Below are positions 377 to 21,699 of a stretch of DNA of 64,000 bases, one piece after another (position 1 is the stretch's first letter; the number at the start of each line of letters is the position of its first letter). Made by a program: the position numbers and the translations under genes. The notes beneath the pieces were generated by a model, which saw only the letters and a program-made list of their open reading frames with translations, searched no databases and had not been told where the DNA came from. This DNA comes from an uncultured virus (IMG/VR IMGVR_UViG_3300002092_000003). Taxonomy: Duplodnaviria > Heunggongvirae > Uroviricota > Caudoviricetes. Where the stretch lies: IMG/VR virus record IMGVR_UViG_3300002092_000003, positions 1-64,000 of that record; one strand, written 5' to 3'.

Positions 377-577
377 ATGAAATTATCAGATGAGGGGCTT
401 CGGTCCCTCTCTTCTCGTTGGCTTGTTGTACATAAGTCAGATTACATATACTGGCTTATGCTTAGAGAAGCTTACGAAGATATAGATCTACTATCTACTC
501 GCTATGATATGCATTGGGCGGCTAACTTTCGTGTTCCTATATTGTATTCTAAAGTAATTTGCGCATTGCGAGGATAG
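377..577 (+). CDS. small protein, C-terminal SKL-motif family
   Basis: ends PILYSKVICALRG*. Confidence 0.65.
   Translation: MKLSDEGLRSLSSRWLVVHKSDYIYWLMLREAYEDIDLLSTRYDMHWAANFRVPILYSKVICALRG
392..415 (+). terminator. possible intrinsic terminator/hairpin
   Basis: GAGGGGC-TTCG-GTCCCTC stem with UUCG loop followed by TCTTCT; weak U-tract. Confidence 0.45.
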
Positions 578-596
578 CGATTTTTGGAGAAAATCT

Positions 597-758
597 ATGA
601 TACACACCGATTACAACATATTCTGTTACGTCTGGCAATCTCCTATCAACATTAGAACACATGCATTAGTATCCCGCCGAAGAGCAGGACAGAAGTACAA
701 TCATAAAGTAACTATGCTAATGTCTCCGCTAATACGAGCAATGTATGCTAAGGCATGA
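597..758 (+). CDS. small protein, SKL-motif family (53 aa, not in ORF track)
   Basis: GGAGA SD; MIHTDYNIF...VTMLMSPLIRAMYAKA*. Confidence 0.7.
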   Translation: MIHTDYNIFCYVWQSPINIRTHALVSRRRAGQKYNHKVTMLMSPLIRAMYAKA

Positions 759-915
759 GTATAGGGCAGGGGAGAAATATGATCACATAAATTCAATATC
801 AGGATTTATCCTTGGCGTAGATGAATATTACGCTGATAGCAGACAATGTATGGATGATATTGCCATTAGAATCTGCGTTTACCAAACTAAACTTATACAA
901 GCGATGTTCAAATGA
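745..915 (+). CDS. small protein, SKL-motif family (56 aa, not in ORF track)
   Basis: MLRHEYRAG...ICVYQTKLIQAMFK*; overlaps both neighbours. Confidence 0.7.
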   Translation: MLRHEYRAGEKYDHINSISGFILGVDEYYADSRQCMDDIAIRICVYQTKLIQAMFK

Positions 916-1106
916 AGTATATATTTAATCCCAAGGAACTAATCGCTTATTCAGATTATGGGGAGGATTACATAGAAGAATTACAACACTATGTAAATGG
1001 AAAATATAACATAAATATTCCACATTTTACTTCAGGTTGTGATTATGTATATGTATGGAGAGCAAAAATAATAAAAACAAAACTGTTGACAGCCCTTTTC
1101 AAATAA
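912..1106 (+). CDS. small protein, SKL-motif family
   Basis: ends AKIIKTKLLTALFK*; ATGA overlap with the upstream ORF. Confidence 0.7.
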   Translation: MKYIFNPKELIAYSDYGEDYIEELQHYVNGKYNINIPHFTSGCDYVYVWRAKIIKTKLLTALFK

Positions 1107-1135
1107 TATAACATGTATCTAACGGAGGCAACCAA

Positions 1136-2269
1136 ATGAACTTAAATCAAATCAAACGCTCACTTACTACTCTCTTCGACGCTAACATTACACCACTATT
1201 TATCGGACATGCGGGTGTCGGTAAAACTTCTATCGTACAACAGTATGCAGAAGAAAACGGCTATGACCTTAAAGTTATTCGCCTAGGTACAATGTCAGAT
1301 GCTGGTGACTTACTTGGTCTAGCAGACTTTAAACGCGGCAAAGATGGCATTGCAATCGAGACTTTGTATGTCGCTCCTAAGTTCATTCCGCTTAACGGCA
1401 GAACAGAAAAAAAGACGATACTATTCTTTGATGAGATTAACAGATGTCACAAAGATTTAATACAGGCTATCTTCCAAGTTGTGGAAGGTGGTGGACAACT
1501 CGGACCGCACACACTTGACAGCGGCACAAAGGTAATTGCAGCTTGTAATCCGCCTTCAGATGATTACATGGTACTAGACATTACCGATGCAGCATTTAAC
1601 GATAGATTCTGCCACATTGCTTTTGAACCTACTGTAGAAGACTTTCTCGGCTATGCTAAAGAAAAGTTCAATAACAGTATTTATGAGTTTTACCGCGATC
1701 AGCCTCAGTTTATTGAGATGACTAGATCACACATTGACTTAAGCTACGTTAAACCTTCCCGCAGATCGGGAGAAAAAGTATCTAAGCTAATGAATTTAAA
1801 GATAGCCGACGATGTTCGTATGGAAGTATTTGCTGGGATTATTGGCGCGGAAGCGGCTACAAGCTTAGAAAGATACTTAAAAGAAAAAGTTACTAATGTA
1901 GATCCTAAAGATGTACTATATAGTTATAAGAAAGTATCTAAGAAAGTGAAAGCTATGGATATGGCTACACTTAACAGTACTTTCAATGGCATGAAAGATA
2001 TTCTCGGAGAGATCGAGCCGGGGAATTTCAAAGTGTTATTGCCGAATCTTGTACAGTTCCTTAAAGATGTTCCTGTAGAGTTTATGACAAATGCAATCAT
2101 TCAGATGCTACTTGTTGAGAACTTTATTAATGACGACGATACAATAGAATTGCTACTGAATAACGATGACCTTACTGCAATCATTTTAGAGCAAAGAAAG
2201 CTTGGTGTTGTGGATAAAGTAATCGCTGATTTTACAGCAGCTCAAGAAGCTGAAAAGAAAGAAGAATAA
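1136..2269 (+). CDS. MoxR-like AAA+ ATPase
   Basis: Walker A GHAGVGKT, Walker B ILFFDEINR, AACNP sensor, DAAFNDRF arginine finger; GGAGG SD. Confidence 0.9.
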   Translation: MNLNQIKRSLTTLFDANITPLFIGHAGVGKTSIVQQYAEENGYDLKVIRLGTMSDAGDLLGLADFKRGKDGIAIETLYVAPKFIPLNGRTEKKTILFFDEINRCHKDLIQAIFQVVEGGGQLGPHTLDSGTKVIAACNPPSDDYMVLDITDAAFNDRFCHIAFEPTVEDFLGYAKEKFNNSIYEFYRDQPQFIEMTRSHIDLSYVKPSRRSGEKVSKLMNLKIADDVRMEVFAGIIGAEAATSLERYLKEKVTNVDPKDVLYSYKKVSKKVKAMDMATLNSTFNGMKDILGEIEPGNFKVLLPNLVQFLKDVPVEFMTNAIIQMLLVENFINDDDTIELLLNNDDLTAIILEQRKLGVVDKVIADFTAAQEAEKKEE

Positions 2270-2299
2270 GTCCCTCCGAAGGATAGTGTTTGTTGTGTG

Positions 2300-2336
2300 G
2301 CGGAGATAATATTACTAGTGTTATCTCCGTTTTTTA
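2300..2336 (+). terminator. intrinsic terminator
   Basis: CGGAGATAATA-loop-TGTTATCTCCG followed by TTTTTT. Confidence 0.75.
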
Positions 2337-2348
2337 TTTGGAGTATTT

Positions 2349-2498
2349 ATGTATGTAAACATTGCACGTTATCGAGCTTTACAAGGACTTATAACTTACA
2401 CACACTATGATACAGAAGTTGATTACAAATATTTCTTGCAATATAAAAAAACTATGATAGAATCAAAATTGTTAGAAGCTTTACGCAAAGGAGGCTGA
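2349..2498 (+). CDS. small protein, SKL-motif family (49 aa, not in ORF track)
   Basis: GGAG SD; MYVNIARYR...KTMIESKLLEALRKGG*. Confidence 0.7.
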   Translation: MYVNIARYRALQGLITYTHYDTEVDYKYFLQYKKTMIESKLLEALRKGG

Positions 2499-2500
2499 GA

Positions 2501-2725
2501 ATGAAACGAAGTGAAATGATTGCAATTCTTAAAAGAGAACTATCGAATGCTTCCAGATTTTGCACAACAGACAACGGTACAGTTAGGTATCATTCGGTAT
2601 ATATTGATAATCTTTTAACCGCGATAGAAAATGCAGGAATGATGCCTCCCGATAACGGCACTAATAATTATGAATTTACTTATAGTTGGACTCCTGAAAA
2701 TAACGAGGAAACACAAAATGATTAA
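2501..2725 (+). CDS. hypothetical protein, paralogue of 61244..61447
   Basis: MKRSEMI...IENAGMMPP...YSWTPE versus MKKSEII...LEDEGMVPP...YDWESE. Confidence 0.75.
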   Translation: MKRSEMIAILKRELSNASRFCTTDNGTVRYHSVYIDNLLTAIENAGMMPPDNGTNNYEFTYSWTPENNEETQND

Positions 2726-3905
2726 TTCAACACCACTTTCAAACGCAATTGTAAGCATGACTCTGGACACAAACAGCAATAGCTTGTTTTATGCTCACAT
2801 GCTAATGAACTGCAAAATAACATATTCAGATAAATTGCCCGCCCCTGCTGGCGTGAGAGTAACCTCTCGCATTGAAATTACAATTAATCCCGCGCTGTGG
2901 AATCCCATCTCCACTACTGCACAGATTGGAATACTAAAGCATGAGATGATGCACGTTATCATGGGACATACTGGACAAAAGAAACAACTTGTAGAAACGC
3001 TAAAGCTATCTCACAAGCAGTTAAATATCGCTATGGATTGCGCTATTAATCAGCTTGATGATTTGCCTACACGCCTAAAGGATTTGGGCTGCGTTACTGT
3101 AGAAGCGTTCAGGAAGGGCGTGAAAAAGTATTACAAAGGTGAGGTCAAGCCAAACATGACCATGGAATATTATGCTCGGATTATCAAGGAAGTTCAGGAT
3201 GAATACGAGTCTCAAGGTGGAGACTATTCCGAGTTTGGCGAGGACTTAGACGATCACGAAGGCATGGATGAAACAGAAGGTGCTAGCGAGGCTATGCAGC
3301 GCGAGGTCGTAAAGCAATCTGTGCGTGATGCGCTAAAGAAGCAAGCGGGGAATGCTCCGTCTGGCTTAGACATCTTCATCAAGGATTTGATGGAAGCTAA
3401 AGTAGATTGGAAAAAAGAACTTAAGAGTTTCTTTAACAATAGTATTAACTATACTAAAACTACTACACGTTCCCGACGTAACCGTCGATACGGTACGCTA
3501 TATGCAGGTAAAAAGAAAGATTACCAAATGAAAGTTGCATTTATGATTGATACCTCTGGCTCGATGGGAGCTACTGAGTTTACTCAGGCATGGGGGGAAA
3601 TTTGTCGCATAAAAACATTGTATCCTGATATGGAAGTTACGATTATCGAATGCGATGCTGAGGTACAGCAAGTAAGGGAGTTTAAAAAGTCGATGGATTT
3701 CAATCTCAAAGGCGGAGGAGGTACTTTGTGCCAACCTGCAATAGATGAGGCTACTCGTCAGGAAGTTGATTTCATGATATACTTTACAGATGGTGGTATC
3801 TTCGATCAGCCGGTAAATCCTAAAGTACCGTTTCTGTGGGTGCTGTGTGGTGGAAATAGCTTGCATGGTAATGTAGATTTCGGTAGAAAGGTGGTAGTGC
3901 AGTGA
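2718..3905 (+). CDS. metallopeptidase-like + VWA domain protein (DUF2201-like MoxR partner)
   Basis: HEMMH zinc motif, NIAMDCAIN, VDWKKEL, MIDAS DTSGSM, GGGGT, YFTDG; start placed at ATG 2718 after GAGG. Confidence 0.88.
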   Translation: MINSTPLSNAIVSMTLDTNSNSLFYAHMLMNCKITYSDKLPAPAGVRVTSRIEITINPALWNPISTTAQIGILKHEMMHVIMGHTGQKKQLVETLKLSHKQLNIAMDCAINQLDDLPTRLKDLGCVTVEAFRKGVKKYYKGEVKPNMTMEYYARIIKEVQDEYESQGGDYSEFGEDLDDHEGMDETEGASEAMQREVVKQSVRDALKKQAGNAPSGLDIFIKDLMEAKVDWKKELKSFFNNSINYTKTTTRSRRNRRYGTLYAGKKKDYQMKVAFMIDTSGSMGATEFTQAWGEICRIKTLYPDMEVTIIECDAEVQQVREFKKSMDFNLKGGGGTLCQPAIDEATRQEVDFMIYFTDGGIFDQPVNPKVPFLWVLCGGNSLHGNVDFGRKVVVQ

Positions 3906-4087
3906 AGTTGGGAAGGTATGTCTGCTTTGATGGACAAATAAAGTCTGTAGAATTTAAACACATAAGAGAAAATAAAGAATTTGCTGCGGCTTATAATCAA
4001 GTAGAAGAGGATTGTGTGTATGCTGGATGGAGTGGATGGATTACTGTTCCGGTGGCAAATAGCAAACTTGTGAGAGCCTTACTATGA
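3902..4087 (+). CDS. small protein, SKL-motif family
   Basis: ends VPVANSKLVRALL*. Confidence 0.7.
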   Translation: MKLGRYVCFDGQIKSVEFKHIRENKEFAAAYNQVEEDCVYAGWSGWITVPVANSKLVRALL

Positions 4088-4281
4088 AAAACAGTACATT
4101 GTATTGCTATTCGTTAAAGGCGTTAGGAAATAGCTTATCACAGCTTATATGGTTTGTGAAGTGGGGAGATATTAAATACAACTTCCATAGATGGGATGAT
4201 GCCGGTAGAAGCATATACGCAGATAAGGTTTGGAAGTATGATGTTGTAAAAAGCAAAATAGTATTGGGATTATATAAGTAG
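4084..4281 (+). CDS. small protein, SKL-motif family
   Basis: ends YDVVKSKIVLGLYK*. Confidence 0.7.
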   Translation: MKNSTLYCYSLKALGNSLSQLIWFVKWGDIKYNFHRWDDAGRSIYADKVWKYDVVKSKIVLGLYK

Positions 4282-4288
4282 GAGCATT

Positions 4289-6316: not shown

Positions 6317-7072
6317 ATGGGCGCAAAATTAGTTGAGGTTATTAAAAATAAGGGTTTATTTTTATTTGGAAATGAAAAATTCTATCGAATATTAACTAAT
6401 GATCAAATTCATCCTTTAAATAAAGAGGAATTAAAAATATTTAAACGATATGTATCATCTGCTAAACATAGACAAATTGAATTTAAATTAACTAAACTCT
6501 ATTTTAAACAACTTATAAATAAAAAATGTACCTATTGCAATTCTGCTCCCAATACTTACGGAGGCATAGATAGAATTAATAGTTCTGGAGATTATGATAT
6601 TTATAATGTTACTCCATGCTGCGCTATTTGTAATAGAGCAAAACACACTTCATCTTATCCTGAATTTGATGAATATATGAATAATTTAAGAAACATAACA
6701 GATGAACAGAAATATAATGAAATTACAGAGATTGAATCGCCTAAAACTGTATTTAAATTTTTAGGTTTTATAGAAGATACATTTGATTTAACCGTAAGAA
6801 GAAGTTTAGCAGAGTTTTTAATGCATAATACTGAAATTGTTAATTACAAAAGTATATCAATATCTATATCTAATATACAACGTACCATTGACAATAAAGA
6901 TATAATAGAGTATCGAGAACAAATGATTATTCCTTGTTTTGTAAATTTCATAGAACTTAAAACTAAAGTTTATGAAATGTTTTCAGAAAAAGGAGTATAT
7001 AAATTATTAGATTCTAACCAGCTTCAACAAAAGTTATATCTTCTTTCTAAAAAAAATAAAGGAAAATTCTAA
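6317..7072 (+). CDS. HNH-like endonuclease domain protein
   Basis: CTYC...GIDRINSSGDY...NVTPCCAICNRAK; very AT-rich. Confidence 0.7.
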   Translation: MGAKLVEVIKNKGLFLFGNEKFYRILTNDQIHPLNKEELKIFKRYVSSAKHRQIEFKLTKLYFKQLINKKCTYCNSAPNTYGGIDRINSSGDYDIYNVTPCCAICNRAKHTSSYPEFDEYMNNLRNITDEQKYNEITEIESPKTVFKFLGFIEDTFDLTVRRSLAEFLMHNTEIVNYKSISISISNIQRTIDNKDIIEYREQMIIPCFVNFIELKTKVYEMFSEKGVYKLLDSNQLQQKLYLLSKKNKGKF

Positions 7073-7245
7073 TGTGGGCATATCGACAATACTACTTAGG
7101 CAATCTAATCTCCAGTTTTTATCATCCCGATAACGGTAGGTTCTTTATGGCACATGGCACTGATACTTACGCTTGCTCTCCAAGAATGTATACACAAATC
7201 CGTAAAATTGCAGAAACTACTGTAATGAGGACATTACTATGCTAG
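7072..7245 (+). CDS. small protein, SKL-motif family (57 aa, not in ORF track)
   Basis: MWAYRQYYLG...RKIAETTVMRTLLC*. Confidence 0.65.
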   Translation: MWAYRQYYLGNLISSFYHPDNGRFFMAHGTDTYACSPRMYTQIRKIAETTVMRTLLC

Positions 7246-7415
7246 ACCACTATAGATATTTTGCACAAGGGAGAATTGCAATAGATGCATTTGCAGTAAG
7301 CAACTATCTGTATGTACGAGATCTTTTCGAAAATCGTTACTTCTGTTCTGCTGAACACTATACGTTCCTTGCTAAAGCTAGCAATACTAAACTCATAAAG
7401 GCACTACTATGCTAA
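7239..7415 (+). CDS. small protein, SKL-motif family (58 aa, not in ORF track)
   Basis: MLDHYRYFAQG...AKASNTKLIKALLC*. Confidence 0.72.
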   Translation: MLDHYRYFAQGRIAIDAFAVSNYLYVRDLFENRYFCSAEHYTFLAKASNTKLIKALLC

Positions 7416-7588
7416 ACATATATAAGCATTTAGTTCAAAACGGCTATACACTAAAGAAGAGTCCCTTTGGGGGAGTTTGTATGTTTATCCTTAGAACTCG
7501 TACCGGAGACTTTAAAGTTTCAGAAAAGATATATGCTCAAATGTATCGGATATCCTGCACTAAAGTAACGCAGGCACTGTTAAAATGA
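7409..7588 (+). CDS. small protein, SKL-motif family (59 aa, not in ORF track)
   Basis: MLNIYKHLVQNG...YRISCTKVTQALLK*. Confidence 0.7.
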   Translation: MLNIYKHLVQNGYTLKKSPFGGVCMFILRTRTGDFKVSEKIYAQMYRISCTKVTQALLK

Positions 7589-8146: not shown

Positions 8147-8532
8147 AAAAATGCGGTAGATGCTTGATTACAAAATCAACAACAGAATTTGGCAAGAATA
8201 GCCAAGTGAAAGATGGATTAGCTTGGGCATGTAAAGAATGCGGAAGGAAGCATCAGAAGATCTCATATCTTACTGTTAAGATGCGTAAAAGCAAAGTAGA
8301 ACCTCTTGTGCGCAATTGCGGTACTTGTGCTTGGCAATACAATGGTAAATGCTCTGTAAGATCCCCCGGCAGCGTGACAACGGTAGATAGCGATGATAAG
8401 TGCGGTAAATGGGAACGAATTAGAGAACGCGAGATTGAAAATGAATTTGCAGATGATAATTACGAAAATAGCTTGACAGCGCAATTCGAAGGTATTAATA
8501 TGCATGAGAGGGATTATGCGATACAGCTTTAA
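8143..8532 (+). CDS. zinc-finger protein
   Basis: CGRC...CKEC (as in HNH N-terminal ribbons) plus CGTC...C...C. Confidence 0.6.
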   Translation: MKKCGRCLITKSTTEFGKNSQVKDGLAWACKECGRKHQKISYLTVKMRKSKVEPLVRNCGTCAWQYNGKCSVRSPGSVTTVDSDDKCGKWERIREREIENEFADDNYENSLTAQFEGINMHERDYAIQL

Positions 8533-8716
8533 ACAAGATGACCTAACTGGATACCTTGCGCGTGTCGGTAACTTTATGGAAGAGTTTGCCGATAACGTAG
8601 ATGATACTTTATATGAAATGCGTCCATGGAGTGACCATCAGTATTATGATTGTGCCGTATACTGGAAACGAGATATATTTATGAGTAAATTAGCGATAGC
8701 AATATTTGGAGTATAA
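8516..8716 (+). CDS. small protein, SKL-motif family
   Basis: ends RDIFMSKLAIAIFGV*. Confidence 0.68.
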   Translation: MRYSFKQDDLTGYLARVGNFMEEFADNVDDTLYEMRPWSDHQYYDCAVYWKRDIFMSKLAIAIFGV

Positions 8717-11949: not shown

Positions 11950-12143
11950 TGACAAAAATACAATACATAAAGCTTCTCACACAAGCAAAGCTGAAAACTA
12001 CAGATGATTTCTTCGCGTGGCTGATAGAGTCTCCTAGTTTCATAGACTTATCGCCTATAGAGATCGAAATCAACTTCTTGCTGTACTCAGTTGCCTTCGA
12101 TGCATACTGCGTTGCTGCATTCGAGTACGGCAATGAGCACTAA
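11949..12143 (+). CDS. hypothetical protein
   Basis: coupled ORF with GGAG SD. Confidence 0.55.
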   Translation: MTKIQYIKLLTQAKLKTTDDFFAWLIESPSFIDLSPIEIEINFLLYSVAFDAYCVAAFEYGNEH

Positions 12144-12348
12144 ATACAGAGCTAAGTATTCCCGCAAAGGTAAGTATAATGGTTTTCACCACGATAAGTT
12201 GTTGCGCACTTTAAGCAGATGCGGTCCTTTAGTGAGTGTTTGTTGTTTATTTGGCATCGATGGTACGATTTTTGATAATGAATTCTTGAAAATATCCGAA
12301 CTTGTTATACAGAGTAAGCTTATAAGGAGTATACTGTGCGAGAAGTAA
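12133..12348 (+). CDS. small protein, SKL-motif family
   Basis: MSTKYRAKY...ELVIQSKLIRSILCEK*. Confidence 0.7.
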   Translation: MSTKYRAKYSRKGKYNGFHHDKLLRTLSRCGPLVSVCCLFGIDGTIFDNEFLKISELVIQSKLIRSILCEK

Positions 12349-12524: not shown

Positions 12525-12796
12525 AAATAGCTAGACTGCGTGTAAAAACTCTCCGCGAGCTTGCAAGAGAATTCGATGACATTACTCTCGGACTTGAAGG
12601 TGACATCTTCGTAAAGGATGCTGGCATGTCTACCATCAATCGCAGTATCCTTGGACGCACTGTGTTAGGGCATCCTAGTGCTGATGGTACACAATATATA
12701 CTATTATGCTATATAGATAACGATAGGGCTAAACAAACTCTAAATAGTATTCTATATAAGGAATATGTACAAATATTGGCTGAGGGAGAAATATGA
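12521..12796 (+). CDS. hypothetical protein
   Basis: coupled ORF. Confidence 0.55.
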   Translation: MKIARLRVKTLRELAREFDDITLGLEGDIFVKDAGMSTINRSILGRTVLGHPSADGTQYILLCYIDNDRAKQTLNSILYKEYVQILAEGEI

Positions 12797-12990
12797 GTGC
12801 AGATTATCTGTATAATAATCTCAATAAGAATAAAACAGCCTTAGATGCAGTCAAATACTTTATTCGCCGACTTGAGAAAGAACCTATACATTCTATATGG
12901 TTCAAAAAGAACGCTGATGACAACTTTGAAATAAAGCTTAAGGCAGTAAAATCAGCGGTATTACTTGCTTTACTTAAGGAGCATATATGA
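12793..12990 (+). CDS. small protein, SKL-motif family (divergent)
   Basis: ends LKAVKSAVLLALLKEHI*. Confidence 0.55.
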   Translation: MSADYLYNNLNKNKTALDAVKYFIRRLEKEPIHSIWFKKNADDNFEIKLKAVKSAVLLALLKEHI

Positions 12991-14324: not shown

Positions 14325-14866
14325 CTATGGATTGTAAAATTTGTCAAAAACCATTCGTAGCTAGATCCCATAAACATCTTATCTGTAGTATAGGGTGTAC
14401 TGAAGAAAATAAAAGAAGAATTTCTTTAGAATCTTATTATAGAGTAAAAGGGGATGACATTCCAAAAAGGGAGCGAACTTACAACACGGATTTTCCTAAA
14501 GTTAGTAAGAGAGAGCAAAGAGCTAAATATAGGGCAAAAAATAAAGATAAGATTAAACAAAGATCTAGGGACTACAATGCAAAAAGCTACAATACTAGAA
14601 AAAATTACCATTTAAAAAAACATTTTAATATAACACTAGATGAATATAATAATTTACTAGAATTACAAGATCATAGTTGTAAGATCTGTTTAAATCATGA
14701 AAGCACCTTCACTAAAAAGCTAGCAGTAGATCACTGTCATTCTACCGGAAAAATAAGAGGTTTACTTTGCGATAATTGTAACCGTTCAATAGGAATGTTG
14801 AAAGATTCTATCGAAATTTTACAAAATGCCATTAATTATTTAAAAAAGAGTCAAGAAGATGATTAG
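14312..14866 (+). CDS. recombination endonuclease VII-like (homing) endonuclease
   Basis: CKIC...LAVDHCHSTGKIRGLLCDNCNRSIG. Confidence 0.88.
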   Translation: MFRVTMDCKICQKPFVARSHKHLICSIGCTEENKRRISLESYYRVKGDDIPKRERTYNTDFPKVSKREQRAKYRAKNKDKIKQRSRDYNAKSYNTRKNYHLKKHFNITLDEYNNLLELQDHSCKICLNHESTFTKKLAVDHCHSTGKIRGLLCDNCNRSIGMLKDSIEILQNAINYLKKSQEDD

Positions 14867-15395: not shown

Positions 15396-15990
15396 TGGAA
15401 AAGCTCGCCATGGCAAGGATTCTGTATTCAACATCTTAGCTCAATGCGGAGGCTTTAAGCGTATAGCATTCGCCGATCCCCTTAAACGCATATGCTCTCA
15501 AGTATTCAATCTCCCCTTAGAAACATTCTACGACGATGCTATAAAAGACTCCCCCTTCGCCTCTCCCATCAAATGGGCATATCCCTATCAAATACAATTA
15601 GAGTACCTTACAGGCGGCAAGCTACCTGCCTTAGATTTTGTATTCCTTTCTCCGCGAGATCTTCTACAGAAAGTTGGCACTGATATTGTCAGACAGTATA
15701 TTGCAGATGATTTCTGGATTAAGCTACTGGTAAAGGAACTGCAAGAGATGGACGGTAACGTAGCTATTACAGACGCTAGGTTCCAAAATGAACGCGATGC
15801 GCTGAAAGCTATTGGCGGAATGCTAATGCTCGTTAAAAAGCCTAGCAGCGAAGCTGCGGGCGACAGCCATGTGACAGAGAACGATCTTGGAAGCGAAGCT
15901 GACTATTCTATTATAATTAATAACGATGGTACTTTAGCAGAGCTTGACCATGATGTGAAGATGTGGTATAGTCTTAAATATGCTAGGTAG
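15379..15990 (+). CDS. deoxynucleoside monophosphate kinase (T4 gp1-like)
   Basis: ISGKARHGKDS P-loop, FADPLK, RDLLQKVGT, ITDARFQNE, HVTE. Confidence 0.9.
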   Translation: MLVVISGKARHGKDSVFNILAQCGGFKRIAFADPLKRICSQVFNLPLETFYDDAIKDSPFASPIKWAYPYQIQLEYLTGGKLPALDFVFLSPRDLLQKVGTDIVRQYIADDFWIKLLVKELQEMDGNVAITDARFQNERDALKAIGGMLMLVKKPSSEAAGDSHVTENDLGSEADYSIIINNDGTLAELDHDVKMWYSLKYAR

Positions 15991-16216
15991 TAAATACAGA
16001 GAACATTTACGCGGAAAAAGAATAAAGTGGTTTGTACTTTCTAGGTTTATGAAAGAAGTATACAATATGCCATCAAGAGGTAGAAGCTTTGTAAGAGATA
16101 ATTCTACTAGACCTTGTAATTTCGCAGATTTAGATTGTACTTGGCTTCGACACGAAGTATACTATTCCCCTCTCATTAGGAGCTTACTTGATACAAAAAA
16201 TAAAAGAGCATCTTGA
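15980..16216 (+). CDS. small protein, SKL-motif family
   Basis: MLGSKYREHLRG...HEVYYSPLIRSLL followed by a short tail. Confidence 0.7.
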   Translation: MLGSKYREHLRGKRIKWFVLSRFMKEVYNMPSRGRSFVRDNSTRPCNFADLDCTWLRHEVYYSPLIRSLLDTKNKRAS

Positions 16217-16343
16217 ACGCAAAGCCCTTGGCTTAAACTTGTTTTATACCGATGCTGAATTACTGGAAGAAGCTTACTACGAATTGCTAATACTGTCGCA
16301 AGATTTAGAACGTGCTGAACAAGGTGATTTGCGTGAACTATAG
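16188..16343 (+). CDS. hypothetical protein (51 aa, TTG start, not in ORF track)
   Basis: SD AGGAG inside the upstream motif; (M)IQKIKEHLERK...GDLREL*. Confidence 0.55.
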   Translation: MIQKIKEHLERKALGLNLFYTDAELLEEAYYELLILSQDLERAEQGDLREL

Positions 16344-16536
16344 AGGTAAGTTATTTGACGGCAAATGGGTAGATTACTGCCACCCTAGTGATGCATTATT
16401 CCTTCTACTAAATAATAAATTTAGTTATACTGAATTTTGGAATGCTTGCAGTGTAGGTCATACTTCTTATGATTACCCCGTATTAGTTTATGTTTCTGAA
16501 GTGGGAGCAAGTTCTATTGTAAGGGCATTATGCTAG
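16333..16536 (+). CDS. small protein, SKL-motif family
   Basis: (M)NYRGK...SEVGASSIVRALC*. Confidence 0.65.
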   Translation: MNYRGKLFDGKWVDYCHPSDALFLLLNNKFSYTEFWNACSVGHTSYDYPVLVYVSEVGASSIVRALC

Positions 16537-16932: not shown

Positions 16933-17112
16933 GTGCAATATCCCTTCAAATGCGATGATAGAATAAATTGGTGGGCAATTCGACATGTATTCTTGTTATT
17001 ATATAATCCACATGCTTTTACTTATAGAGCACAAGCTGGTAATCACAGCAAAGACAAGTACTTTTTTAAACAAGCAGTTTGGCAATCTAAAGTTATAAAG
17101 GCGTTATCGTAG
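16933..17112 (+). CDS. small protein, SKL-motif family
   Basis: ends KQAVWQSKVIKALS*; AGGAG SD before GTG. Confidence 0.72.
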   Translation: MQYPFKCDDRINWWAIRHVFLLLYNPHAFTYRAQAGNHSKDKYFFKQAVWQSKVIKALS

Positions 17113-17141
17113 AGGATGAAATCCTCGTTATGGGAGTAACT

Positions 17142-17342
17142 ATGAAATTCCGCCATTACCTTATAAATAAATTCGGCAGACCTCATTATAATCTTAACGA
17201 AATGATGTGTTGGGCTACTTATGAGTATGGTTATCCTCAAATACAAGAATGGGAAACAGGCGACAGGTATTCAGGTTACTACTTTGCAACGCAGGGTGTT
17301 ATGCAATCTAAAGTGGTCAGGAGCTTATGTGCGAAAGTTTAG
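17142..17342 (+). CDS. small protein, SKL-motif family
   Basis: MKFRHYL...QGVMQSKVVRSLCAKV*. Confidence 0.72.
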   Translation: MKFRHYLINKFGRPHYNLNEMMCWATYEYGYPQIQEWETGDRYSGYYFATQGVMQSKVVRSLCAKV

Positions 17343-17568
17343 AGAGCGGTATTTAGGTATGGATGTTTGCGGAACCGATCTCGGATACGATTGGATGGAT
17401 AGCATTACTGTTTATTGCAGAAAATCATATGAAGGTAATAATTACCCCGATATTGCTAATTGTTTAGAAGAACTCGAATCTGATTACATAATTAGACAAG
17501 CGGTACTAGATACTAAACTTATACGTTCATTACTTCTGGAGGAATACACTGAAGGAAAAAAAGAATAG
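17329..17568 (+). CDS. small protein, SKL-motif family
   Basis: (M)RKFRERYLG...RQAVLDTKLIRSLL followed by a short tail. Confidence 0.72.
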   Translation: MRKFRERYLGMDVCGTDLGYDWMDSITVYCRKSYEGNNYPDIANCLEELESDYIIRQAVLDTKLIRSLLLEEYTEGKKE

Positions 17569-17776
17569 CGAAATTGAGCATCTGAAAGGCATAATCCGTA
17601 AGCTTACAAAAGAAAATACTGAATTGCGAAAGCAGCTGAAAAAAGAACTTGTATTTGTGCCTAAACCTGACGCGGCTACTTGCAAAAAATGCAAAGCTGT
17701 GGTACACTTAATTGCAGTTCCCGGCGGTAAGAGATTTCTGTACTGTAAGGACTGTAAAACGAGAGAGGAAATATAA
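17549..17776 (+). CDS. coiled-coil + zinc ribbon protein (probable CTG start)
   Basis: GGAGG SD 6 nt before CTG; EIEHLKGIIRKLTKENTELRKQL, CKKC...CKDC. Confidence 0.6.
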   Translation: MKEKKNSEIEHLKGIIRKLTKENTELRKQLKKELVFVPKPDAATCKKCKAVVHLIAVPGGKRFLYCKDCKTREEI

Positions 17777-17929
17777 ATGACAATACTAGAAAAGCTAAAA
17801 GCAAAGATTAAGCAAATTCACCGCATACCCCCTTCAGACGAATTGGATGCTGATACAGAAACCATGTTGGATTATTTTGCTAAGGAAATACTGATTTTTG
17901 TGAAGGAACATAAAGATGAGCTGGAGTAA
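17777..17929 (+). CDS. hypothetical protein (50 aa)
   Basis: GAGG SD; MTILEKLKAKIK... Confidence 0.55.
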   Translation: MTILEKLKAKIKQIHRIPPSDELDADTETMLDYFAKEILIFVKEHKDELE

Positions 17930-18086
17930 GATCTATTTACCCGTAAACCTAATATACTGTGCGAGATATACTGAGATGACCTCTTGGTGTAATACTCTGC
18001 CACACTATACGGGAGATTCGGCTATTTGTAACTTTGCAATTGAATCTAAATTAATAAAGGCATTATATGGACAAAACTTATCGTAA
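17916..18086 (+). CDS. small protein, SKL-motif family (56 aa, not in ORF track)
   Basis: MSWSKIYLP...NFAIESKLIKALYGQNLS*. Confidence 0.72.
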   Translation: MSWSKIYLPVNLIYCARYTEMTSWCNTLPHYTGDSAICNFAIESKLIKALYGQNLS

Positions 18087-18252
18087 TCAGTATATTGGTA
18101 AAGAAGTTTACTATGCTGAACTACGTTTTATAAAAGCGAAGCTTTCGAGTGCTTATCCGTGGATATATGCGGATTTTGATGCTTGTGAATCAGATTCAGT
18201 ATTTGTATTTTTGGTAGTGCATTCTAAAGTAGTAGAGGCTGTGTATGGATAA
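18067..18252 (+). CDS. small protein, SKL-motif family
   Basis: MDKTYRNQYIG...FLVVHSKVVEAVYG*. Confidence 0.7.
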   Translation: MDKTYRNQYIGKEVYYAELRFIKAKLSSAYPWIYADFDACESDSVFVFLVVHSKVVEAVYG

Positions 18253-18625: not shown

Positions 18626-18873
18626 AATTTATTATACTATTATTACTAAATACTAATCTACATGCTAAAACTTTAAAATTTCAATATAAAGATCATGTTA
18701 AACTAATTAAAAATCTTACAGAAGATGATATATTTTATAAATGTAAAACTAGATTATATGAAATCATAGAATATACCAGAAATCCAAATGCTTATTTACT
18801 AAATTCGATAGGATCGGATGGAAAATGTGATAAAAATCAACCAGAAAATAATTTAATAAAGATAGTAAAATGA
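18622..18873 (+). CDS. secreted hypothetical protein
   Basis: signal-peptide-like MKFIILLLLNTNLHA. Confidence 0.55.
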   Translation: MKFIILLLLNTNLHAKTLKFQYKDHVKLIKNLTEDDIFYKCKTRLYEIIEYTRNPNAYLLNSIGSDGKCDKNQPENNLIKIVK

Positions 18874-18984
18874 AAGATTTAAGTTTAAAGGTGACGGGTG
18901 GATTTTGTATCCTTGCTGTTATTTTTATTCCTCTTGGATTTATAAAAGCAGCTGAATTATTGGCTAAATTACTAGGAAAATAAA

Positions 18985-19218
18985 ATGTATTTAAAAGATC
19001 CCAAAACTGGCGAACAGTCTGTATCGCTAACAATGCTCGTATTTTCGTTTGTACTTACCACTGCAGCAGCTATTTTTGTATTTGTAAAAACTGGAAGTAG
19101 TAGCCTTTTAGAAACTCAGTTTTTTACGCTTACGGGTTTGTACTTCTCTCGTCGTATCACATTTAAAGGTCAAAGCTTCGGCGCTGACACAACATCGCAA
19201 GAAGCGAATAAGGAGTAA
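18985..19218 (+). CDS. two-TM membrane protein, holin candidate
   Basis: two hydrophobic segments and a charged C-terminus. Confidence 0.5.
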   Translation: MYLKDPKTGEQSVSLTMLVFSFVLTTAAAIFVFVKTGSSSLLETQFFTLTGLYFSRRITFKGQSFGADTTSQEANKE

Positions 19219-19220
19219 AC

Positions 19221-20000
19221 ATGAAGTTTTTATTAGCAGCTATTTTAGCATTCAGTATTGCTGCGCAAGCTGACACAGTTACACTTTCAGATCAGAACAC
19301 TCTATCATTGAATGGACCTGTCGATGGACATTCTATGACTACTTTAATGACTAAGTTACAAGAGCTAAACAAAATTGATACTAAAGAGCCTATTTTCCTT
19401 TTAATCAATAGTCCCGGTGGAAGTATCTATGACGGATTTGATTTCATCCGTTTTGCAGAAACATCTAAAAGACCTATAAATACCATTACTATTTTTGCCG
19501 CATCTATGGCATTCCAAATTGTAGAAGCTTTAGGTACAAGATATGTAACTAGCTATTCAACCCTTATGTCACATAGAAGTAAAGGTGGCTTTCAAGGAGA
19601 ATTTCCCGGACAAGTTAACAGTAGATATTCTCATGTGATGTCACATATTATTGAACAAGATGTTAAGCTTATTGCTCGCACAAATGGTAAGCAAACTGCA
19701 GAATCATATGCTACTTTAATTGCTGACGAGTACTGGGCTAATAGTTCTCGTGCTATTGAGGATGGATTTGCTGATAAAGAAGTTACGGTATCTTGTGATA
19801 AATCTTTGCAAGGATCTCGACAAGAAACCGTAGATATTGGAATTGCTGTATTAAATGTTGAGTTCTCAAATTGTCCATTGATTACAAGTCCTCTTTCTGT
19901 TAAAGCTGTGCAGGGTACTAACTATGTAGAAGAGCATAATATAAATATAAATGCTGAATTCAGAAAATTGTTTGATGTTAAAAACATAGATAAAATCTAA
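19221..20000 (+). CDS. ClpP-like serine protease with N-terminal signal peptide
   Basis: LLINSPGGS, catalytic AASMA, LMSH, AIEDGFAD; N-terminus MKFLLAAILAFSIAAQA. Confidence 0.82.
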   Translation: MKFLLAAILAFSIAAQADTVTLSDQNTLSLNGPVDGHSMTTLMTKLQELNKIDTKEPIFLLINSPGGSIYDGFDFIRFAETSKRPINTITIFAASMAFQIVEALGTRYVTSYSTLMSHRSKGGFQGEFPGQVNSRYSHVMSHIIEQDVKLIARTNGKQTAESYATLIADEYWANSSRAIEDGFADKEVTVSCDKSLQGSRQETVDIGIAVLNVEFSNCPLITSPLSVKAVQGTNYVEEHNININAEFRKLFDVKNIDKI

Positions 20001-20011
20001 GGAATACTAAA

Positions 20012-20284
20012 ATGGAAACTTTAAAGAAATATTTCAGTTACATTATCGGCGGTCTAGGAGCAATCCTAGCCGCTGTTTTCTTTTTCCAGAAGAAAAAAAT
20101 TGACAGCTTGGAAAAAGATGCTATACTGGCTAATGTCGATAAGACAGATGCGGTACTCGGCGCAAAGCAAGAAGCTATTGCTGAAAAGAAAGCTGAAGTT
20201 GCGCAAGAAATGCAAGCGGCTAAACCTGCTCAAGCGGAGAACTTAGATGACAAAGCAATTGAAGACTACTGGAACAAGAAGTAA
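20012..20284 (+). CDS. N-terminal TM + coiled coil (i-spanin-like)
   Basis: IIGGLGAILAAVFFF followed by a helical K/E/A-rich tail. Confidence 0.45.
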   Translation: METLKKYFSYIIGGLGAILAAVFFFQKKKIDSLEKDAILANVDKTDAVLGAKQEAIAEKKAEVAQEMQAAKPAQAENLDDKAIEDYWNKK

Positions 20285-20465
20285 AATCTGGTGGTGTAAT
20301 GTAAGTCGTTCTCCAAGTAATATTGTCGCTGATTTAACTTTATACTACGACGAGTATTCTGAAAATGACCATTTCTGTGATAGATTTCCTTCTCCTATTT
20401 GTTGGATGAAATCTACTGTAATAACCTCAAGTTTAGTGAAGGTATTAATTGATCAAATGGATTAA
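20247..20465 (+). CDS. small protein, SKL-motif family
   Basis: ends STVITSSLVKVLIDQMD*. Confidence 0.6.
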   Translation: MTKQLKTTGTRSKIWWCNVSRSPSNIVADLTLYYDEYSENDHFCDRFPSPICWMKSTVITSSLVKVLIDQMD

Positions 20466-20703
20466 AAATATATTCCGCCGTAAGACTATACTTGACGATT
20501 TGTCAATTGTGCTTGTTGACAAAATCGGCTGTGGATGGTATAATTTACATAGTAACAATGGAGTAATCTATGAGTTCCACTATGATGAAGACGGTAGCAT
20601 ACATATATATCACGATGGCGATATTGTATTTAGTAGTGACGATCACAGCGAAGCTTTTAGCTTATACGTAACCATATACACTTTACCGGGAATTCACAAA
20701 TGA
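20449..20703 (+). CDS. hypothetical protein
   Basis: TTG start with AAGGT SD inside the upstream motif. Confidence 0.55.
   Translation: MIKWIKNIFRRKTILDDLSIVLVDKIGCGWYNLHSNNGVIYEFHYDEDGSIHIYHDGDIVFSSDDHSEAFSLYVTIYTLPGIHK
20516..20544 (+). promoter_or_regulatory. consensus sigma70 promoter
   Basis: TTGACA-17 nt-TATAAT with extended TG. Confidence 0.75.
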
Positions 20704-21101
20704 ATATATTTCACCATAAACACAAACACTTATCTACTACATTTGGAAACGATTGGTTTGCACTTAAAGCTGAAGCATTTGCTAGGTTTTTTGGCACTCC
20801 TATATTTTTGATTGGACAAACTGTGCTAGTAACTACTTGGATTATTGCTAACATACTAGGTATAGTGCATTTTGATTTATACCCTTTTATTCTGCTTAAC
20901 TTGGCTTTTAGCTTACAAGCTGCGTATGCTGCTCCTTTAATATTATTAGCTCAGACACGACAGGCAGACCGCGATAAAGCACATTCTGAGGCTGATGCGG
21001 AACACCGAGAAGCTATTGCTGCGGAGAGCAAAGAAATACTAAAAAGAATTGAATTGCTCACTGTTGAGGTTCATGAACACATTTTAAAGGAATCAAAATG
21101 A
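20700..21101 (+). CDS. DUF1003-family membrane protein
   Basis: FDLYPFILLNLAFSLQAAYAAPLILLAQTRQADRD signature. Confidence 0.88.
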   Translation: MNIFHHKHKHLSTTFGNDWFALKAEAFARFFGTPIFLIGQTVLVTTWIIANILGIVHFDLYPFILLNLAFSLQAAYAAPLILLAQTRQADRDKAHSEADAEHREAIAAESKEILKRIELLTVEVHEHILKESK

Positions 21102-21478
21102 AAATATTATTAATACTCTGCCTATCGATTTCACTAGCCCATGCTGGTAATGTTTCTGTAATTACAAAAGGCACTCCCGCCCCCTTCGATGGGGTACTGT
21201 TCTCCCGTGAGATGGAAAAGGCTATTCGCCAAACCGACTTAGACAACGTGTTTTTAAAACAGCAGAATGCCTCTTTGACGCGTTTAAACGATCTATCTGA
21301 GCAAGAGACAGCTATAGTTACTAAACGCTATGAGAATATGCAATTGAAGGCTAATGAGCTTGCTGAGAAGCAAGTGAAAATGGATAACAACAGCTTCTGG
21401 AAAAATAGCTTGTATTTTATCAGCGGTGCGCTAATTACAGGGCTTATTACTTATGGAGTAGCTCGTGCAGTCAAATAG
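21098..21478 (+). CDS. signal peptide + coiled coil + C-terminal TM protein (spanin-like candidate)
   Basis: MKILLILCLSISLAHA, KGTPAPFDGVLF, C-terminal hydrophobic helix. Confidence 0.5.
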   Translation: MKILLILCLSISLAHAGNVSVITKGTPAPFDGVLFSREMEKAIRQTDLDNVFLKQQNASLTRLNDLSEQETAIVTKRYENMQLKANELAEKQVKMDNNSFWKNSLYFISGALITGLITYGVARAVK

Positions 21479-21513
21479 TATTTGGTTTTGTTCTGTAAAT
21501 AAAGAGGCTATAT

Positions 21514-21699
21514 TTGCAGATATATAAATGGCTTTCCCGCAAAAATCCTGTTAATGATATCAATACGTTTCCTGATTATTTTTTCGATAGTAAAAAGATT
21601 GTATGGATTGATAATGCACATAATAAAAATCATTCCCCTGTAAAGCAAGAGGTATTTGAAAGTGGACTTATCAAAGCTATCTTTGGAAGAATTAGCTGA
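21514..21699 (+). CDS. small protein, SKL-motif family
   Basis: ends KQEVFESGLIKAIFGRIS*. Confidence 0.65.
   Translation: MQIYKWLSRKNPVNDINTFPDYFFDSKKIVWIDNAHNKNHSPVKQEVFESGLIKAIFGRIS

What the first reader, a model, noticed from the sequence alone, without database searches (positions are those of the whole stretch)
377..21699. Dispersed family of about 22 small early proteins with unrelated bodies but one conserved C-terminal helix
Seen directly, C-terminal segments by ORF start: 377 ILYSKVICALR; 597 MLMSPLIRAMY; 745 VYQTKLIQAMF; 912 IIKTKLLTALF; 2349 MIESKLLEALR; 3902 VANSKLVRALL; 4084 VVKSKIVLGLY; 7072 IAETTVMRTLL; 7239 ASNTKLIKALL; 7409 ISCTKVTQALL; 8516 IFMSKLAIAIF; 12133 VIQSKLIRSIL; 12793 AVKSAVLLALL; 15980 VYYSPLIRSLL; 16333 VGASSIVRALC; 16933 VWQSKVIKALS; 17142 VMQSKVVRSLC; 17329 VLDTKLIRSLL; 17916 AIESKLIKALY; 18067 VVHSKVVEAVY; 20247 VITSSLVKVLI; 21514 VFESGLIKAIF. 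Consensus [VI]xx[ST]K[LVI][IVL][RK][AS]L. All are 49-79 aa, on the + strand, in the early block, and rich in Y/W/C/D; seven are below the ORF-track cutoff. The Ser is encoded by TCT/TCA/AGC/AGT/TCC, which points to protein-level rather than DNA-level conservation. Inference: a variable-payload, constant-tag system, with the amphipathic helix acting as a docking, targeting or degradation tag (for a membrane, a host hub, or a phage chaperone/protease) that delivers a diversified repertoire of host-takeover or anti-defence peptides. I cannot name a described family that fits.
Basis: partly seen in the sequence, partly recalled or inferred. Interest (0 to 1): 0.92.

Follow-up and report, generated by a model that had tools for sequence, protein, structure and literature searches.

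The report
Phage family of 35 small proteins
An uncultured 81-kb freshwater phage devotes about a quarter of its genes to one undescribed family of roughly 60-residue proteins that differ almost everywhere except a shared C-terminal strand-plus-helix, probably a fast-evolving set of host-directed binders whose function is still unknown.

Summary
All 22 ORFs exist as written. The motif is selected at the protein level: the cap Ser is encoded by both TCN and AGY, and information content peaks at codon position 2.

The family is larger than reported. There are 35 copies in the 80,981-bp genome, 27 of them firm by leave-one-out scoring. That is 8.6% of the DNA and about 24% of ORFs.

It is absent from 78 related phage loci and from 5 whole related genomes. 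In 1.84 billion proteins the only foreign hits are two orthologs. Pfam, PHROGs, NCBIfam, PADLOC and PDB sequences give nothing.

- **Module:** the conserved part is about 17 residues, not 11.
- **R/K position:** it is mostly the Shine-Dalgarno site of the overlapping next gene.
- **Bodies:** they show no pairwise similarity.
- **Single-family signs:** a narrow size range, a second N-terminal motif in 17 of 35 and no copy on a large protein favour one fast-diverging family over a portable tag.

Function and partner are unknown. This scan has noted analogous arrays, with other motifs, in other phages (unchecked notes).

The parts
377..577 (+). family member o377, 66 aa
   Evidence: Leave-one-out rank 5 of 29,093.
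597..758 (+). family member o597, 53 aa
   Evidence: Leave-one-out rank 3. The next gene's start lies 10 nt after the +4 codon.
745..915 (+). family member o745, 56 aa
   Evidence: Leave-one-out rank 1. Carries the N-terminal motif.
912..1106 (+). family member o912, 64 aa
   Evidence: Leave-one-out rank 1. In the AF2 model, helix 57-63 coincides with the motif.
2349..2498 (+). family member o2349, 49 aa
   Evidence: Leave-one-out rank 1. This stretch is replaced by 219 other letters in a related phage contig.
3902..4087 (+). family member o3902, 61 aa (GTG start)
   Evidence: Leave-one-out rank 1. Overlaps the start of o4084 by ATGA.
4084..4281 (+). family member o4084, 65 aa
   Evidence: Leave-one-out rank 1.
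7072..7245 (+). probable diverged member o7072, 57 aa
   Evidence: Fails leave-one-out on the motif (rank 15,132). Kept because it stands in tandem with o7239 and o7409, has the same size and end, and carries the N-terminal motif.
7239..7415 (+). family member o7239, 58 aa
   Evidence: Leave-one-out rank 1.
7409..7588 (+). family member o7409, 59 aa
   Evidence: Leave-one-out rank 35. Carries the N-terminal motif.
8516..8716 (+). family member o8516, 66 aa (an alternative start lies at 8504)
   Evidence: Leave-one-out rank 1.
12133..12348 (+). family member o12133, 71 aa (an alternative start lies at 12091)
   Evidence: Leave-one-out rank 1.
12793..12990 (+). probable member o12793, 65 aa
   Evidence: Leave-one-out rank 167. 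The motif lies at the C-terminus.
15980..16216 (+). family member o15980, 78 aa
   Evidence: Leave-one-out rank 1.
16333..16536 (+). family member o16333, 67 aa (an alternative start lies at 16312)
   Evidence: Leave-one-out rank 20.
16933..17112 (+). family member o16933, 59 aa (an alternative start lies at 16903)
   Evidence: Leave-one-out rank 1, with the best score of all, 20.1 bits.
17142..17342 (+). family member o17142, 66 aa
   Evidence: Leave-one-out rank 4. Has a foreign ortholog, P0126.
17329..17568 (+). family member o17329, 79 aa (GTG start; an alternative start lies at 17221)
   Evidence: Leave-one-out rank 1.
17916..18086 (+). family member o17916, 56 aa
   Evidence: Leave-one-out rank 1.
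18067..18252 (+). family member o18067, 61 aa
   Evidence: Leave-one-out rank 8.
20247..20465 (+). probable member o20247, 72 aa
   Evidence: Leave-one-out rank 113. The motif lies at the C-terminus.
21514..21699 (+). family member o21514, 61 aa (TTG start)
   Evidence: Leave-one-out rank 1.
1136..3905 (+). MoxR-type AAA+ ATPase (1136-2269) and DUF2201 metallopeptidase-like/VWA protein (2670-3905), embedded among family members. This is context and a speculative partner only.
   Evidence: Pfam and PHROGs hits. MoxR is missing from 4 of 5 related genomes that also lack the family.

Best explanation
This is one lineage-specific, massively expanded family of small proteins (about 49-90 aa, median about 64), encoded in the replication-gene (early/middle) block of an uncultured tailed phage.

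**Anatomy of a copy**
- Each copy keeps a C-terminal module of about 17 residues. It reads as a short strand-like stretch (aromatic at -9, hydrophobic at -7, K/R at -6, V/I/A at -3, hydrophobic at -2).
- A Ser/Thr helix cap follows, then a two-turn amphipathic helix, K-[LVI]-[IVL]-x-[AS]-[LI]-[LFY].
- Half the copies also keep an N-terminal aromatic-basic pair.
- The 30-50 residues in between are rich in Trp, Tyr and Cys and have diverged beyond recognition.

**Most likely mechanism**
- The conserved ends form the common scaffold or contact surface of one small fold.
- The variable middle gives each copy its own target.
- Together they would form a repertoire of stoichiometric binders or inhibitors aimed at host (takeover or anti-defence) or phage proteins, made early in translationally coupled strings.

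**Shown:** the family itself, its size, selection on the protein, restriction to this lineage, and the overlap of the next gene's ribosome site with the helix codons.

**Inferred:** the fold, early expression, binding and the biological role.
For: **Family and copy number**
- 35 copies; 27 of 35 rank 8 or better among 29,093 ORFs in leave-one-out scoring.
- 10 copies were found outside the training window.
- 26 of 35 stand in 9 tandem arrays (coordinates).

**Protein-level selection**
- Information by codon position is 0.60/1.01/0.34 bits.
- The cap residue is encoded by TCN 15 times, AGY 11 times and ACN 8 times.
- Codon use in the motif is close to the genome's.
- Motif strength is equal whether or not a downstream start overlaps it (scores, grouped as).

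**One family rather than a tag**
- Conserved columns run on to -9, with z scores of 4 to 19.
- The N-terminal M-x(1-4)-[YFW]-[RK] motif occurs in 17 of 35, against 91 of 1,679 decoy ORFs and 2.9 +/- 1.6 in shuffles (the motif was defined after seeing the alignment).
- Sizes are 49-90 aa.
- No hit lies in a stop-to-stop frame longer than 120 aa in this genome.
- No longer protein appears among the 15 significant hits in 1.84 billion proteins.

**Each body is itself under constraint**
- Three foreign orthologs keep their bodies: 71% identity for P0135; P0126 and P0137 by eye.

**Lineage restriction**
- 0 of 27,655 ORFs in 78 related loci reach 12 bits.
- 0 of 5 whole related genomes match, against 35 matches in the phage's own genome.

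**Helix prediction**
- Both AF2 models put a helix on the motif, and it is their best-scored region.
Against: - Bodies show no pairwise similarity above shuffled controls: best E 0.006, and 2 hits at E<0.01 against 0-4 in shuffles.
- Body-only profiles recover held-out members only weakly: 1-4 of 16 fall in the top 16 of 1,771. Common descent of the bodies is therefore inferred, not shown.
- Both AF2 models are of low confidence (pLDDT 67.5 and 54.4). They disagree on the body, helical in one and a beta sheet in the other.
- Conserved exposed basic residues (K at +1 in 26 of 35; K/R at -6 in 23 of 35) are as expected for a docking surface as for a fold.
- No expression data were found (one search listed no RNA run).
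- Early timing rests only on position and strand. The sigma-70 promoter scan was at chance level.
Confidence: 0.55

Rival explanations
1. Portable docking or targeting tag. Bodies of separate origin, or of separate fold, each carry the same C-terminal handle. The handle brings them to one common hub, either a host protein or a phage protein such as the neighbouring MoxR ATPase and VWA/metallopeptidase pair.
For: - No pairwise similarity between bodies, even between tandem neighbours.
- Conserved surface-type residues in the module: K at +1 in 26 of 35, K/R at -6 in 23 of 35.
- In the ortholog pair o78399/P0137 the last 17 residues are identical while the body differs widely (compared by eye).
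- MoxR and the VWA protein lie among family members. MoxR is missing from 4 of 5 relatives that lack the family. This is one lineage, so the link is weak.
Against: - Payload size is narrow, 49-90 aa overall.
- There is no linker, and conservation continues into the body to -9.
- Half the members share a second motif at the N-terminus.
- The module is not found on any larger protein.
- In two other ortholog pairs the module changes as fast as the body (by eye).
- MoxR/DUF2201 pairs belong to PHROGs that are common in phages, so they are not specific to this family.
Confidence: 0.25
2. Membrane-targeting amphipathic helix. The C-terminal helix would lie on the inner membrane, as the C-terminal helices of MinD or FtsA do (recalled, from no call), bringing a set of small proteins to the membrane.
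For: - The helical pattern read from the sequence has hydrophobic residues at +2, +3, +6 and +7 and polar or basic residues at +1, +4 and +8.
- It lies close to the C-terminus.
Against: - The helix is only two turns long.
- The tightly kept Ser/Thr cap (34 of 35) and small residue at +5 (Ala, Ser or Gly in 32 of 35) are more typical of a packed helix.
- The basic residue at +4 is an artefact of the next gene's ribosome site.
- There is no direct test.
Confidence: 0.08
3. By-product of gene overlap. On this reading the peptide is conserved only because the 3' end of each ORF holds the ribosome-binding site and start codon of the next gene.
For: - In 17 of 34 members a candidate start lies 8-11 nt after the first base of the +4 codon.
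- Among those 17, the +4 codon is AGG, AAG, AGA or GAG in 12, and the residue is K or R in 14. Among the other 17 the counts are 2 and 2.
- Leu at +6 is TTA in 11 of 12 coupled members and 6 of 13 others.
Against: - This explains only positions +4 and +6 to +8.
- The other 17 members keep the rest of the motif equally well (scores).
- Positions -9 to +3 lie upstream of any Shine-Dalgarno site.
- Ser is encoded by two unconnected codon families.
- Third codon positions are the least conserved.
Confidence: 0.03

Closest known systems
Lineage-specific expansion of a small zinc-ribbon protein (~35 copies) in Bacillus phage G (PMC7824862; passage read)
   Same: About 35 copies of one small protein in a single phage lineage. 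It is recognisable by a short signature and its function is unknown. That paper calls the expansion 'unprecedented'.
   Different: - There is no zinc ribbon here: 8 of 35 members have no Cys at all.
- The signature is a C-terminal strand-plus-helix.
- The genome is 81 kb rather than a jumbo phage, so the family takes 8.6% of the DNA.
- No sequence relation was found.
Capsid targeting sequence (CTS) of the diverse internal proteins of T-even phages (PMC3012670; passage read)
   Same: Highly diverse proteins that keep only one short conserved segment. The paper reads them as anti-defence proteins.
   Different: - The CTS is N-terminal and serves packaging into the prohead, with cleavage by the head protease (recalled).
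- Here the segment is C-terminal.
- The genes lie in the replication block, on the strand opposite the structural genes.
- Sizes are uniform.
Arrays of small early phage proteins sharing a C-terminal helix, noted earlier by this scan in T4 (e.2-e.5), T4-like giant phages and jumbo phages (AI notes e1-295287, e1-5854584, e1-5972876, e1-323220)
   Same: The same pattern: many small, otherwise dissimilar, probably early proteins ending in one protein-level conserved helix. The partner is unknown.
   Different: - The motifs and phages are different.
- No sequence look-alike was found in the scan's index.
- The notes are unchecked and two carry 'part of it fell'. They are leads, not support.
Poxvirus ankyrin/PRANC and other viral F-box-like families (recalled; no call)
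   Same: A works-like analogy for the rival reading: variable binding heads plus a conserved C-terminal docking motif for one host hub.
   Different: - Eukaryotic viruses, long repeat heads and a known partner (the SCF ligase).
- Nothing here shows a hub.
- There is no sequence relation.

Membership tests
Any described protein family (Pfam, PHROGs, NCBIfam, PADLOC, PDB sequences) | A significant profile match | tested here: not met
   - Pfam and PHROGs: 0 families for the 22 members.
- NCBIfam and PADLOC: 0 families for the 35 members.
- PDB sequences: best E-value 1.8.
- ESM Atlas: no usable hit.
Lineage-specific expansion of a small phage protein (the kind, e.g. the phage G zinc ribbon) | Many paralogous copies in one genome sharing a signature | tested here: met
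   35 copies, of which 27 are firm by leave-one-out scoring.
Lineage-specific expansion of a small phage protein (the kind) | Absent or rare outside the lineage | tested here: met
   - 0 hits in 78 related loci.
- 0 hits in 5 whole related genomes.
- Only 2 foreign orthologs among 15 significant hits in 1.84 billion proteins.
Phage G zinc-ribbon family itself | Paired Cys zinc-ribbon motif | tested here: not met
   Members hold 0-4 Cys each, and 8 of 35 have none.
T-even internal proteins with CTS | The conserved tag is at the N-terminus | tested here: not met
   The strong motif lies 0-11 residues from the C-terminus.
T-even internal proteins with CTS | Proteins are packaged in the virion and processed by the head protease | not testable with these tools
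   No virion proteome is available. The genes lie in the replication block, on the opposite strand to the head genes.
C-terminal degradation tags (ssrA/ClpX-type; recalled definition) | Conserved residues at the extreme C-terminus | tested here: not met
   The residues after the motif vary from 0 to 11 in number and are not conserved.
Peroxisomal PTS1 (-SKL-COOH; recalled) | The tripeptide is at the extreme C-terminus in a eukaryotic host | tested here: not met
   S-K-[LVI] is followed by 5-15 further residues. The genome is that of a tailed phage, with terminase, portal and major head protein.
MinD/FtsA-type membrane targeting helix (recalled) | The C-terminal amphipathic helix is sufficient for membrane binding | not testable with these tools
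   Only the amphipathic pattern can be read from the sequence.

The most novel reading that the evidence does not exclude
The shared C-terminal module is a docking handle. Through it, about 35 different specificity heads plug into a single hub. One candidate hub is the MoxR AAA+ ATPase with its VWA/metallopeptidase partner, which is encoded among them and is missing from 4 of 5 relatives that lack the family. On this reading a mid-sized phage carries an adaptor repertoire for remodelling or destroying many host proteins, a bacterial-virus counterpart of viral F-box-like adaptor families.
Probability: 0.12. Interest if true: 0.85.

Novelty: new member of a known kind. Interest (0 to 1): 0.55.

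Why it matters
A quarter of this phage's genes belong to one family that no database describes. That investment is unusually large for an 81-kb genome. The only expansion of similar copy number I found in print, in a jumbo phage, was called unprecedented (PMC7824862, passage).

- Such arrays are likely to hold host-takeover or anti-defence functions.
- The conserved module gives a simple handle for finding the common fold or the common partner experimentally.
- The overlap of the next gene's ribosome site with a conserved helix is a clean example of two constraints sharing the same codons. It should be kept in mind when reading C-terminal motifs in compact phage genomes.

Tried and rejected
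**Unavailable or uninformative tools**
- AF2 of two members: low confidence.
- Fold search of model 1 against 48,161 chains: best Z 2.2, which says nothing.
- ESM Atlas: no usable hit.

**Searches for relatives**
- Scans with PolB, the PolB of a closer relative in genome contigs and an ortholog pair gave no true relative. The two metagenome loci L082 and L083 are false positives.
- The word-indexed profile search found 66 candidates, only one of them foreign.

**Expression and promoters**
- No RNA holder was listed for the stretch.
- Contigs of run X3 leave most small-ORF stretches uncovered. Only the joint 2263-2718 is used as evidence.
- The sigma-70 promoter scan gave 75 sites against 77.9 +/- 10.7 in shuffles, so it says nothing about early promoters.

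**Body-level tests**
- Body-only profile cross-validation gave only weak enrichment.

**Readings considered and dropped**
- A degradation tag, PTS1 and a zinc ribbon (see the membership tests).
- A DNA-level repeat or recombination site, because third codon positions are the least conserved.
- ClpP-like protease as partner. It begins with a signal-peptide-like sequence, lies among membrane-protein genes, and occurs in 2 of 5 relatives that lack the family.

**Not done**
- dN/dS of motif against body could not be computed, because no DNA of the orthologs could be fetched.

Full report
**1.

They are 49-79 aa and on the + strand, and the quoted segment lies 0-10 residues from the stop.

A loose residue-class pattern occurs 30 times in the six frames of the window (27 on the + strand and 3 on the - strand). 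Of these, 22 are the quoted sites, all at the ends of small + strand ORFs before 22 kb.

A 23-residue profile built from the 22 gives these scores:
- the 22 themselves: 13.6-30.1 bits;
- the next ORF in the window: 10.1 bits;
- the best of 20 shuffled windows: 12.4 bits;
- the best of 27,655 stop-to-stop ORFs in 78 loci of related phages (1.5 Mb): 9.8 bits, with none at 12 or more.

**2. The family is larger than reported**

The window is the first 64 kb of an 80,981-bp viral record with 71-bp direct terminal repeats. The + strand block runs on from about 60 kb over the genome end into the window.

The profile trained only on the window found ten more + strand small ORFs at 64-81 kb, with the same C-terminal segment, at 8.1-15.4 bits (starts chosen). 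Reading the ORF list added three weaker candidates.

In genome coordinates the extra members start at 65990, 66184, 68486, 68692 (Cys in place of Ser/Thr), 68961, 69139, 69362, 76085, 78214, 78399, 78617, 79230 and 79411.

In leave-one-out tests, a 17-residue profile built from the other 34 was ranked against 29,092 decoy ORFs:
- 19 of 35 rank first;
- the weak ones are o16333 (rank 20), o7409 (35), o68486 (92), o20247 (113), o12793 (167), o69362 (175), o68692 (985) and o7072 (15,132).

The 35 ORFs take 6,924 nt, which is 8.6% of the genome. In a crude greedy ORF set of 145, they are about 24% of all ORFs and 31% of the 111 in the + strand block.

Twenty-six of the 35 stand in nine tandem arrays (coordinates).

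**3. Conservation acts on the protein, with one local exception**

Within the 11 motif codons, mean information is 0.60, 1.01 and 0.34 bits at codon positions 1, 2 and 3. The helix-cap residue is encoded by TCN (15), AGY (11), ACN (8) and TGY (1). Codon choice inside the motif is close to the genome's usage.

The exception is the variable position written [RK].
- In 17 of 34 members, a candidate start codon of the next ORF lies 8-11 nt after the first base of that codon.
- In those 17, the codon is AGG, AAG, AGA or GAG in 12, and the residue is K or R in 14.
- In the other 17, the counts are 2 and 2 (Fisher p = 0.0013 and 9e-5).
- Leu at +6 is TTA in 11 of 12 coupled members against 6 of 13 others.

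So the next gene's Shine-Dalgarno site and ATG are written into the helix codons, and they explain positions +4 and +6 to +8 in half the family. They do not explain the rest. Uncoupled members keep the motif equally well (scores), and positions -9 to +3 lie upstream of any ribosome site.

Some of the downstream starts are uncertain. For o8516, an ATG 12 nt further on, preceded by GGAG, looks better (read).

**4. Anatomy**

Columns anchored on the cap residue were compared with 1,000 within-protein shuffles (residue counts).

| Position | Residues | z score |
|---|---|---|
| -9 | Tyr in 10 of 35 | 4.0 |
| -7 | hydrophobic or aromatic | 6.8 |
| -6 | K/R in 23 of 35 | 11.3 |
| -3 | V/I/A in 31 of 35 | 19 |
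| -2 | hydrophobic | 5.5 |

After these come:
- S/T in 34 of 35 at position 0;
- K in 26 of 35 at +1;
- L/V/I in 35 of 35 at +2;
- mostly I/V/L at +3;
- A/S/G in 32 of 35 at +5;
- L/I/M/V in 35 of 35 at +6;
- L/F/Y in 27 of 35 at +7.

The alternating pattern before the cap suggests a strand. After the cap, hydrophobic residues at +2, +3, +6 and +7 with polar ones at +1, +4 and +8 give a two-turn amphipathic helix. This is my reading of the sequence. Both AF2 models place a helix exactly there, and it is their best-scored region.

At the other end, 17 of 35 members begin M-x(1-4)-[YFW]-[RK]. That compares with 91 of 1,679 decoy small ORFs (Fisher p = 2e-12) and 2.9 +/- 1.6 in composition-matched shuffles, where 0 of 2,000 reach 17. 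I defined this motif after seeing the alignment.

Between the two ends nothing aligns.
- With the module removed, all-against-all BLASTP gives a best E of 0.006 and 2 hits at E<0.01. Twenty shuffles give 0-4 hits and a minimum E of 4e-4.
- Body-only profiles recover held-out members only weakly: 1-4 of 16 fall in the top 16 of 1,771.

Compared with the long ORFs of the phage, the family is enriched in W (3.3x), C (2.7x), Y (2.2x), H (1.7x) and R (1.65x), but not in D (0.96x). Charge ranges from strongly basic to acidic.

**5. Distribution**

- The PolB of this phage has hundreds of relatives at 40-60% identity.
- The 78 IMG/VR loci around such PolB genes lack the family.
- Five whole related records also lack it: 0 matches, against 35 in the phage's own genome as a positive control.
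- An exhaustive profile search of 1.84 billion representative proteins gave 15 hits at E of 0.001 or less. Thirteen are this phage's own proteins. Two are foreign orthologs, P0135 of o65990 and P0137 of o78399.
- The word-indexed search added P0126, an ortholog of o17142.
- In that library, relatives above 50% identity are hidden behind one representative, so close relatives may hold more orthologs.

The orthologs keep their bodies, so each body is itself under constraint. P0135 is 71% identical over the full length. In P0137 the last 17 residues are identical while the body differs widely. In the other two pairs the module changes about as fast as the body (by eye).

Two runs labelled freshwater metagenome hold the stretch and may be its source. 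A third holds a relative. One of its contigs is collinear with MoxR, the VWA gene, the primase and ORF 12336, at roughly 77-87% identity. It jumps across small-ORF stretches. At 2263-2718, which holds o2349 and a 74-aa ORF, it carries 219 other letters instead.

**6. Structure**

| Model | Alignment | pLDDT | pTM | Body prediction |
|---|---|---|---|---|
| o912 | 35 rows | 67.5 | 0.46 | helical |
| o65990 | 37 rows | 54.4 | 0.28 | four strands, then the C-terminal helices |

The two models disagree on the body and are too weak to decide whether the helix packs on it.

**7. Context**

The genome is that of a tailed phage.
- **Structural genes:** terminase, portal, major head protein and tail genes lie on the - strand at 22-60 kb.
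- **Replication genes:** the + strand block holds a DnaB-type helicase-primase, PolB, a dNMP kinase, endonuclease VII, exonucleases, Erf and a class II ribonucleotide reductase.
- **Family position:** the family is interleaved with these replication genes, so early or middle expression is inferred from position only.
- **MoxR and VWA:** a MoxR-type ATPase and a DUF2201 metallopeptidase-like/VWA protein lie among members. MoxR is missing from 4 of the 5 relatives that lack the family. This is one lineage, and both proteins belong to common phage PHROGs.
- **ClpP-like protein:** it begins with a signal-peptide-like sequence, sits among membrane-protein genes, and occurs in 2 of the 5 relatives.

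**8. Reading**

I put most weight (0.55) on one fast-diverging, lineage-specific family. Its conserved ends make the common scaffold or contact surface, and its variable, aromatic-rich middle gives each copy its own target. This would be a binder repertoire for host takeover or anti-defence, made in translationally coupled strings.

The arguments against a portable tag on unrelated payloads (0.25) are:
- the narrow size range;
- the lack of a linker;
- the second motif at the N-terminus;
- the absence of the module from any larger protein.

The arguments for a portable tag are:
- the complete lack of body similarity;
- the conserved basic surface residues.

A membrane-targeting helix (0.08) is a special case that I cannot test. 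Gene-overlap constraint as the full explanation (0.03) is refuted for all but three or four positions.

**9. Comparison and novelty**

The kind is known: lineage-specific expansions of small phage proteins.
- The closest copy number in print that I found is the ~35-copy zinc ribbon of Bacillus phage G, called unprecedented (PMC7824862; passage read). This family has no zinc ribbon and sits in a far smaller genome.
- The T-even internal proteins keep only a capsid targeting sequence (PMC3012670; passage read). That tag is N-terminal and serves packaging.
- This scan has unchecked notes of similar C-terminal-helix arrays, with other motifs, in T4 and giant phages. No sequence look-alike of this family is in its index.
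- My four literature searches turned up no description of this family. They were keyword searches and cannot show that it is absent from print.

**10. Open**

Fold, partner, timing and function are all unknown.

Noticed in passing
window 62741-64000, continuing to genome 65626 (L081:1-1626): A class II (B12-type) ribonucleotide reductase gene is interrupted by an intein that carries a LAGLIDADG domain. The Pfam hits are RNR-II_ins_dom, Intein_splicing, LAGLIDADG_3 and Ribonuc_red_lgC. Three of the four fall below Pfam's curated cut-off.
   Followed up: partly
window 6317-7072, 14312-14866, 48615-49358, 50622-51338, 57236-57946: Five HNH/endonuclease VII-type genes are scattered over both gene blocks. 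With the intein, this suggests a genome rich in homing elements.
   Followed up: no
window 48062-48646 (-): A Mom-family DNA modification protein (Pfam PF25680, E 1e-37; PHROG 1384) lies next to the head genes.
   Followed up: no
window 18870-21478 (+): A cluster of small membrane-type proteins surrounds a ClpP-family protease that begins with a signal-peptide-like sequence, together with a DUF1003 protein. It could be a lysis or envelope module rather than a head protease.
   Followed up: no
L081:3926-4180 (genome 67926-68180): An 84-aa ORF carries a copy of the motif pattern about 30 residues before its end. It may be a member with a C-terminal extension. The profile did not score it highly.
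   Followed up: no
L081:9449-10060 (genome 73449-74060): A lipoprotein-like ORF (its start ends in ...LLASCGK) carries collagen-type G-x-y repeats (Pfam Collagen, E 1e-7) inside the + strand block.
   Followed up: no
whole genome: The phage's own small proteins are on record from 8-13 contigs, the longest 118,838 bases. That is longer than the 80,981-base record, so the longest contig could be a concatemer-like assembly or a larger context.
   Followed up: no
window 2299-2331 (+): A 15-pair hairpin followed by a T run lies just after the MoxR gene and before o2349. It is the strongest terminator-like site in the first 20 kb.
   Followed up: no
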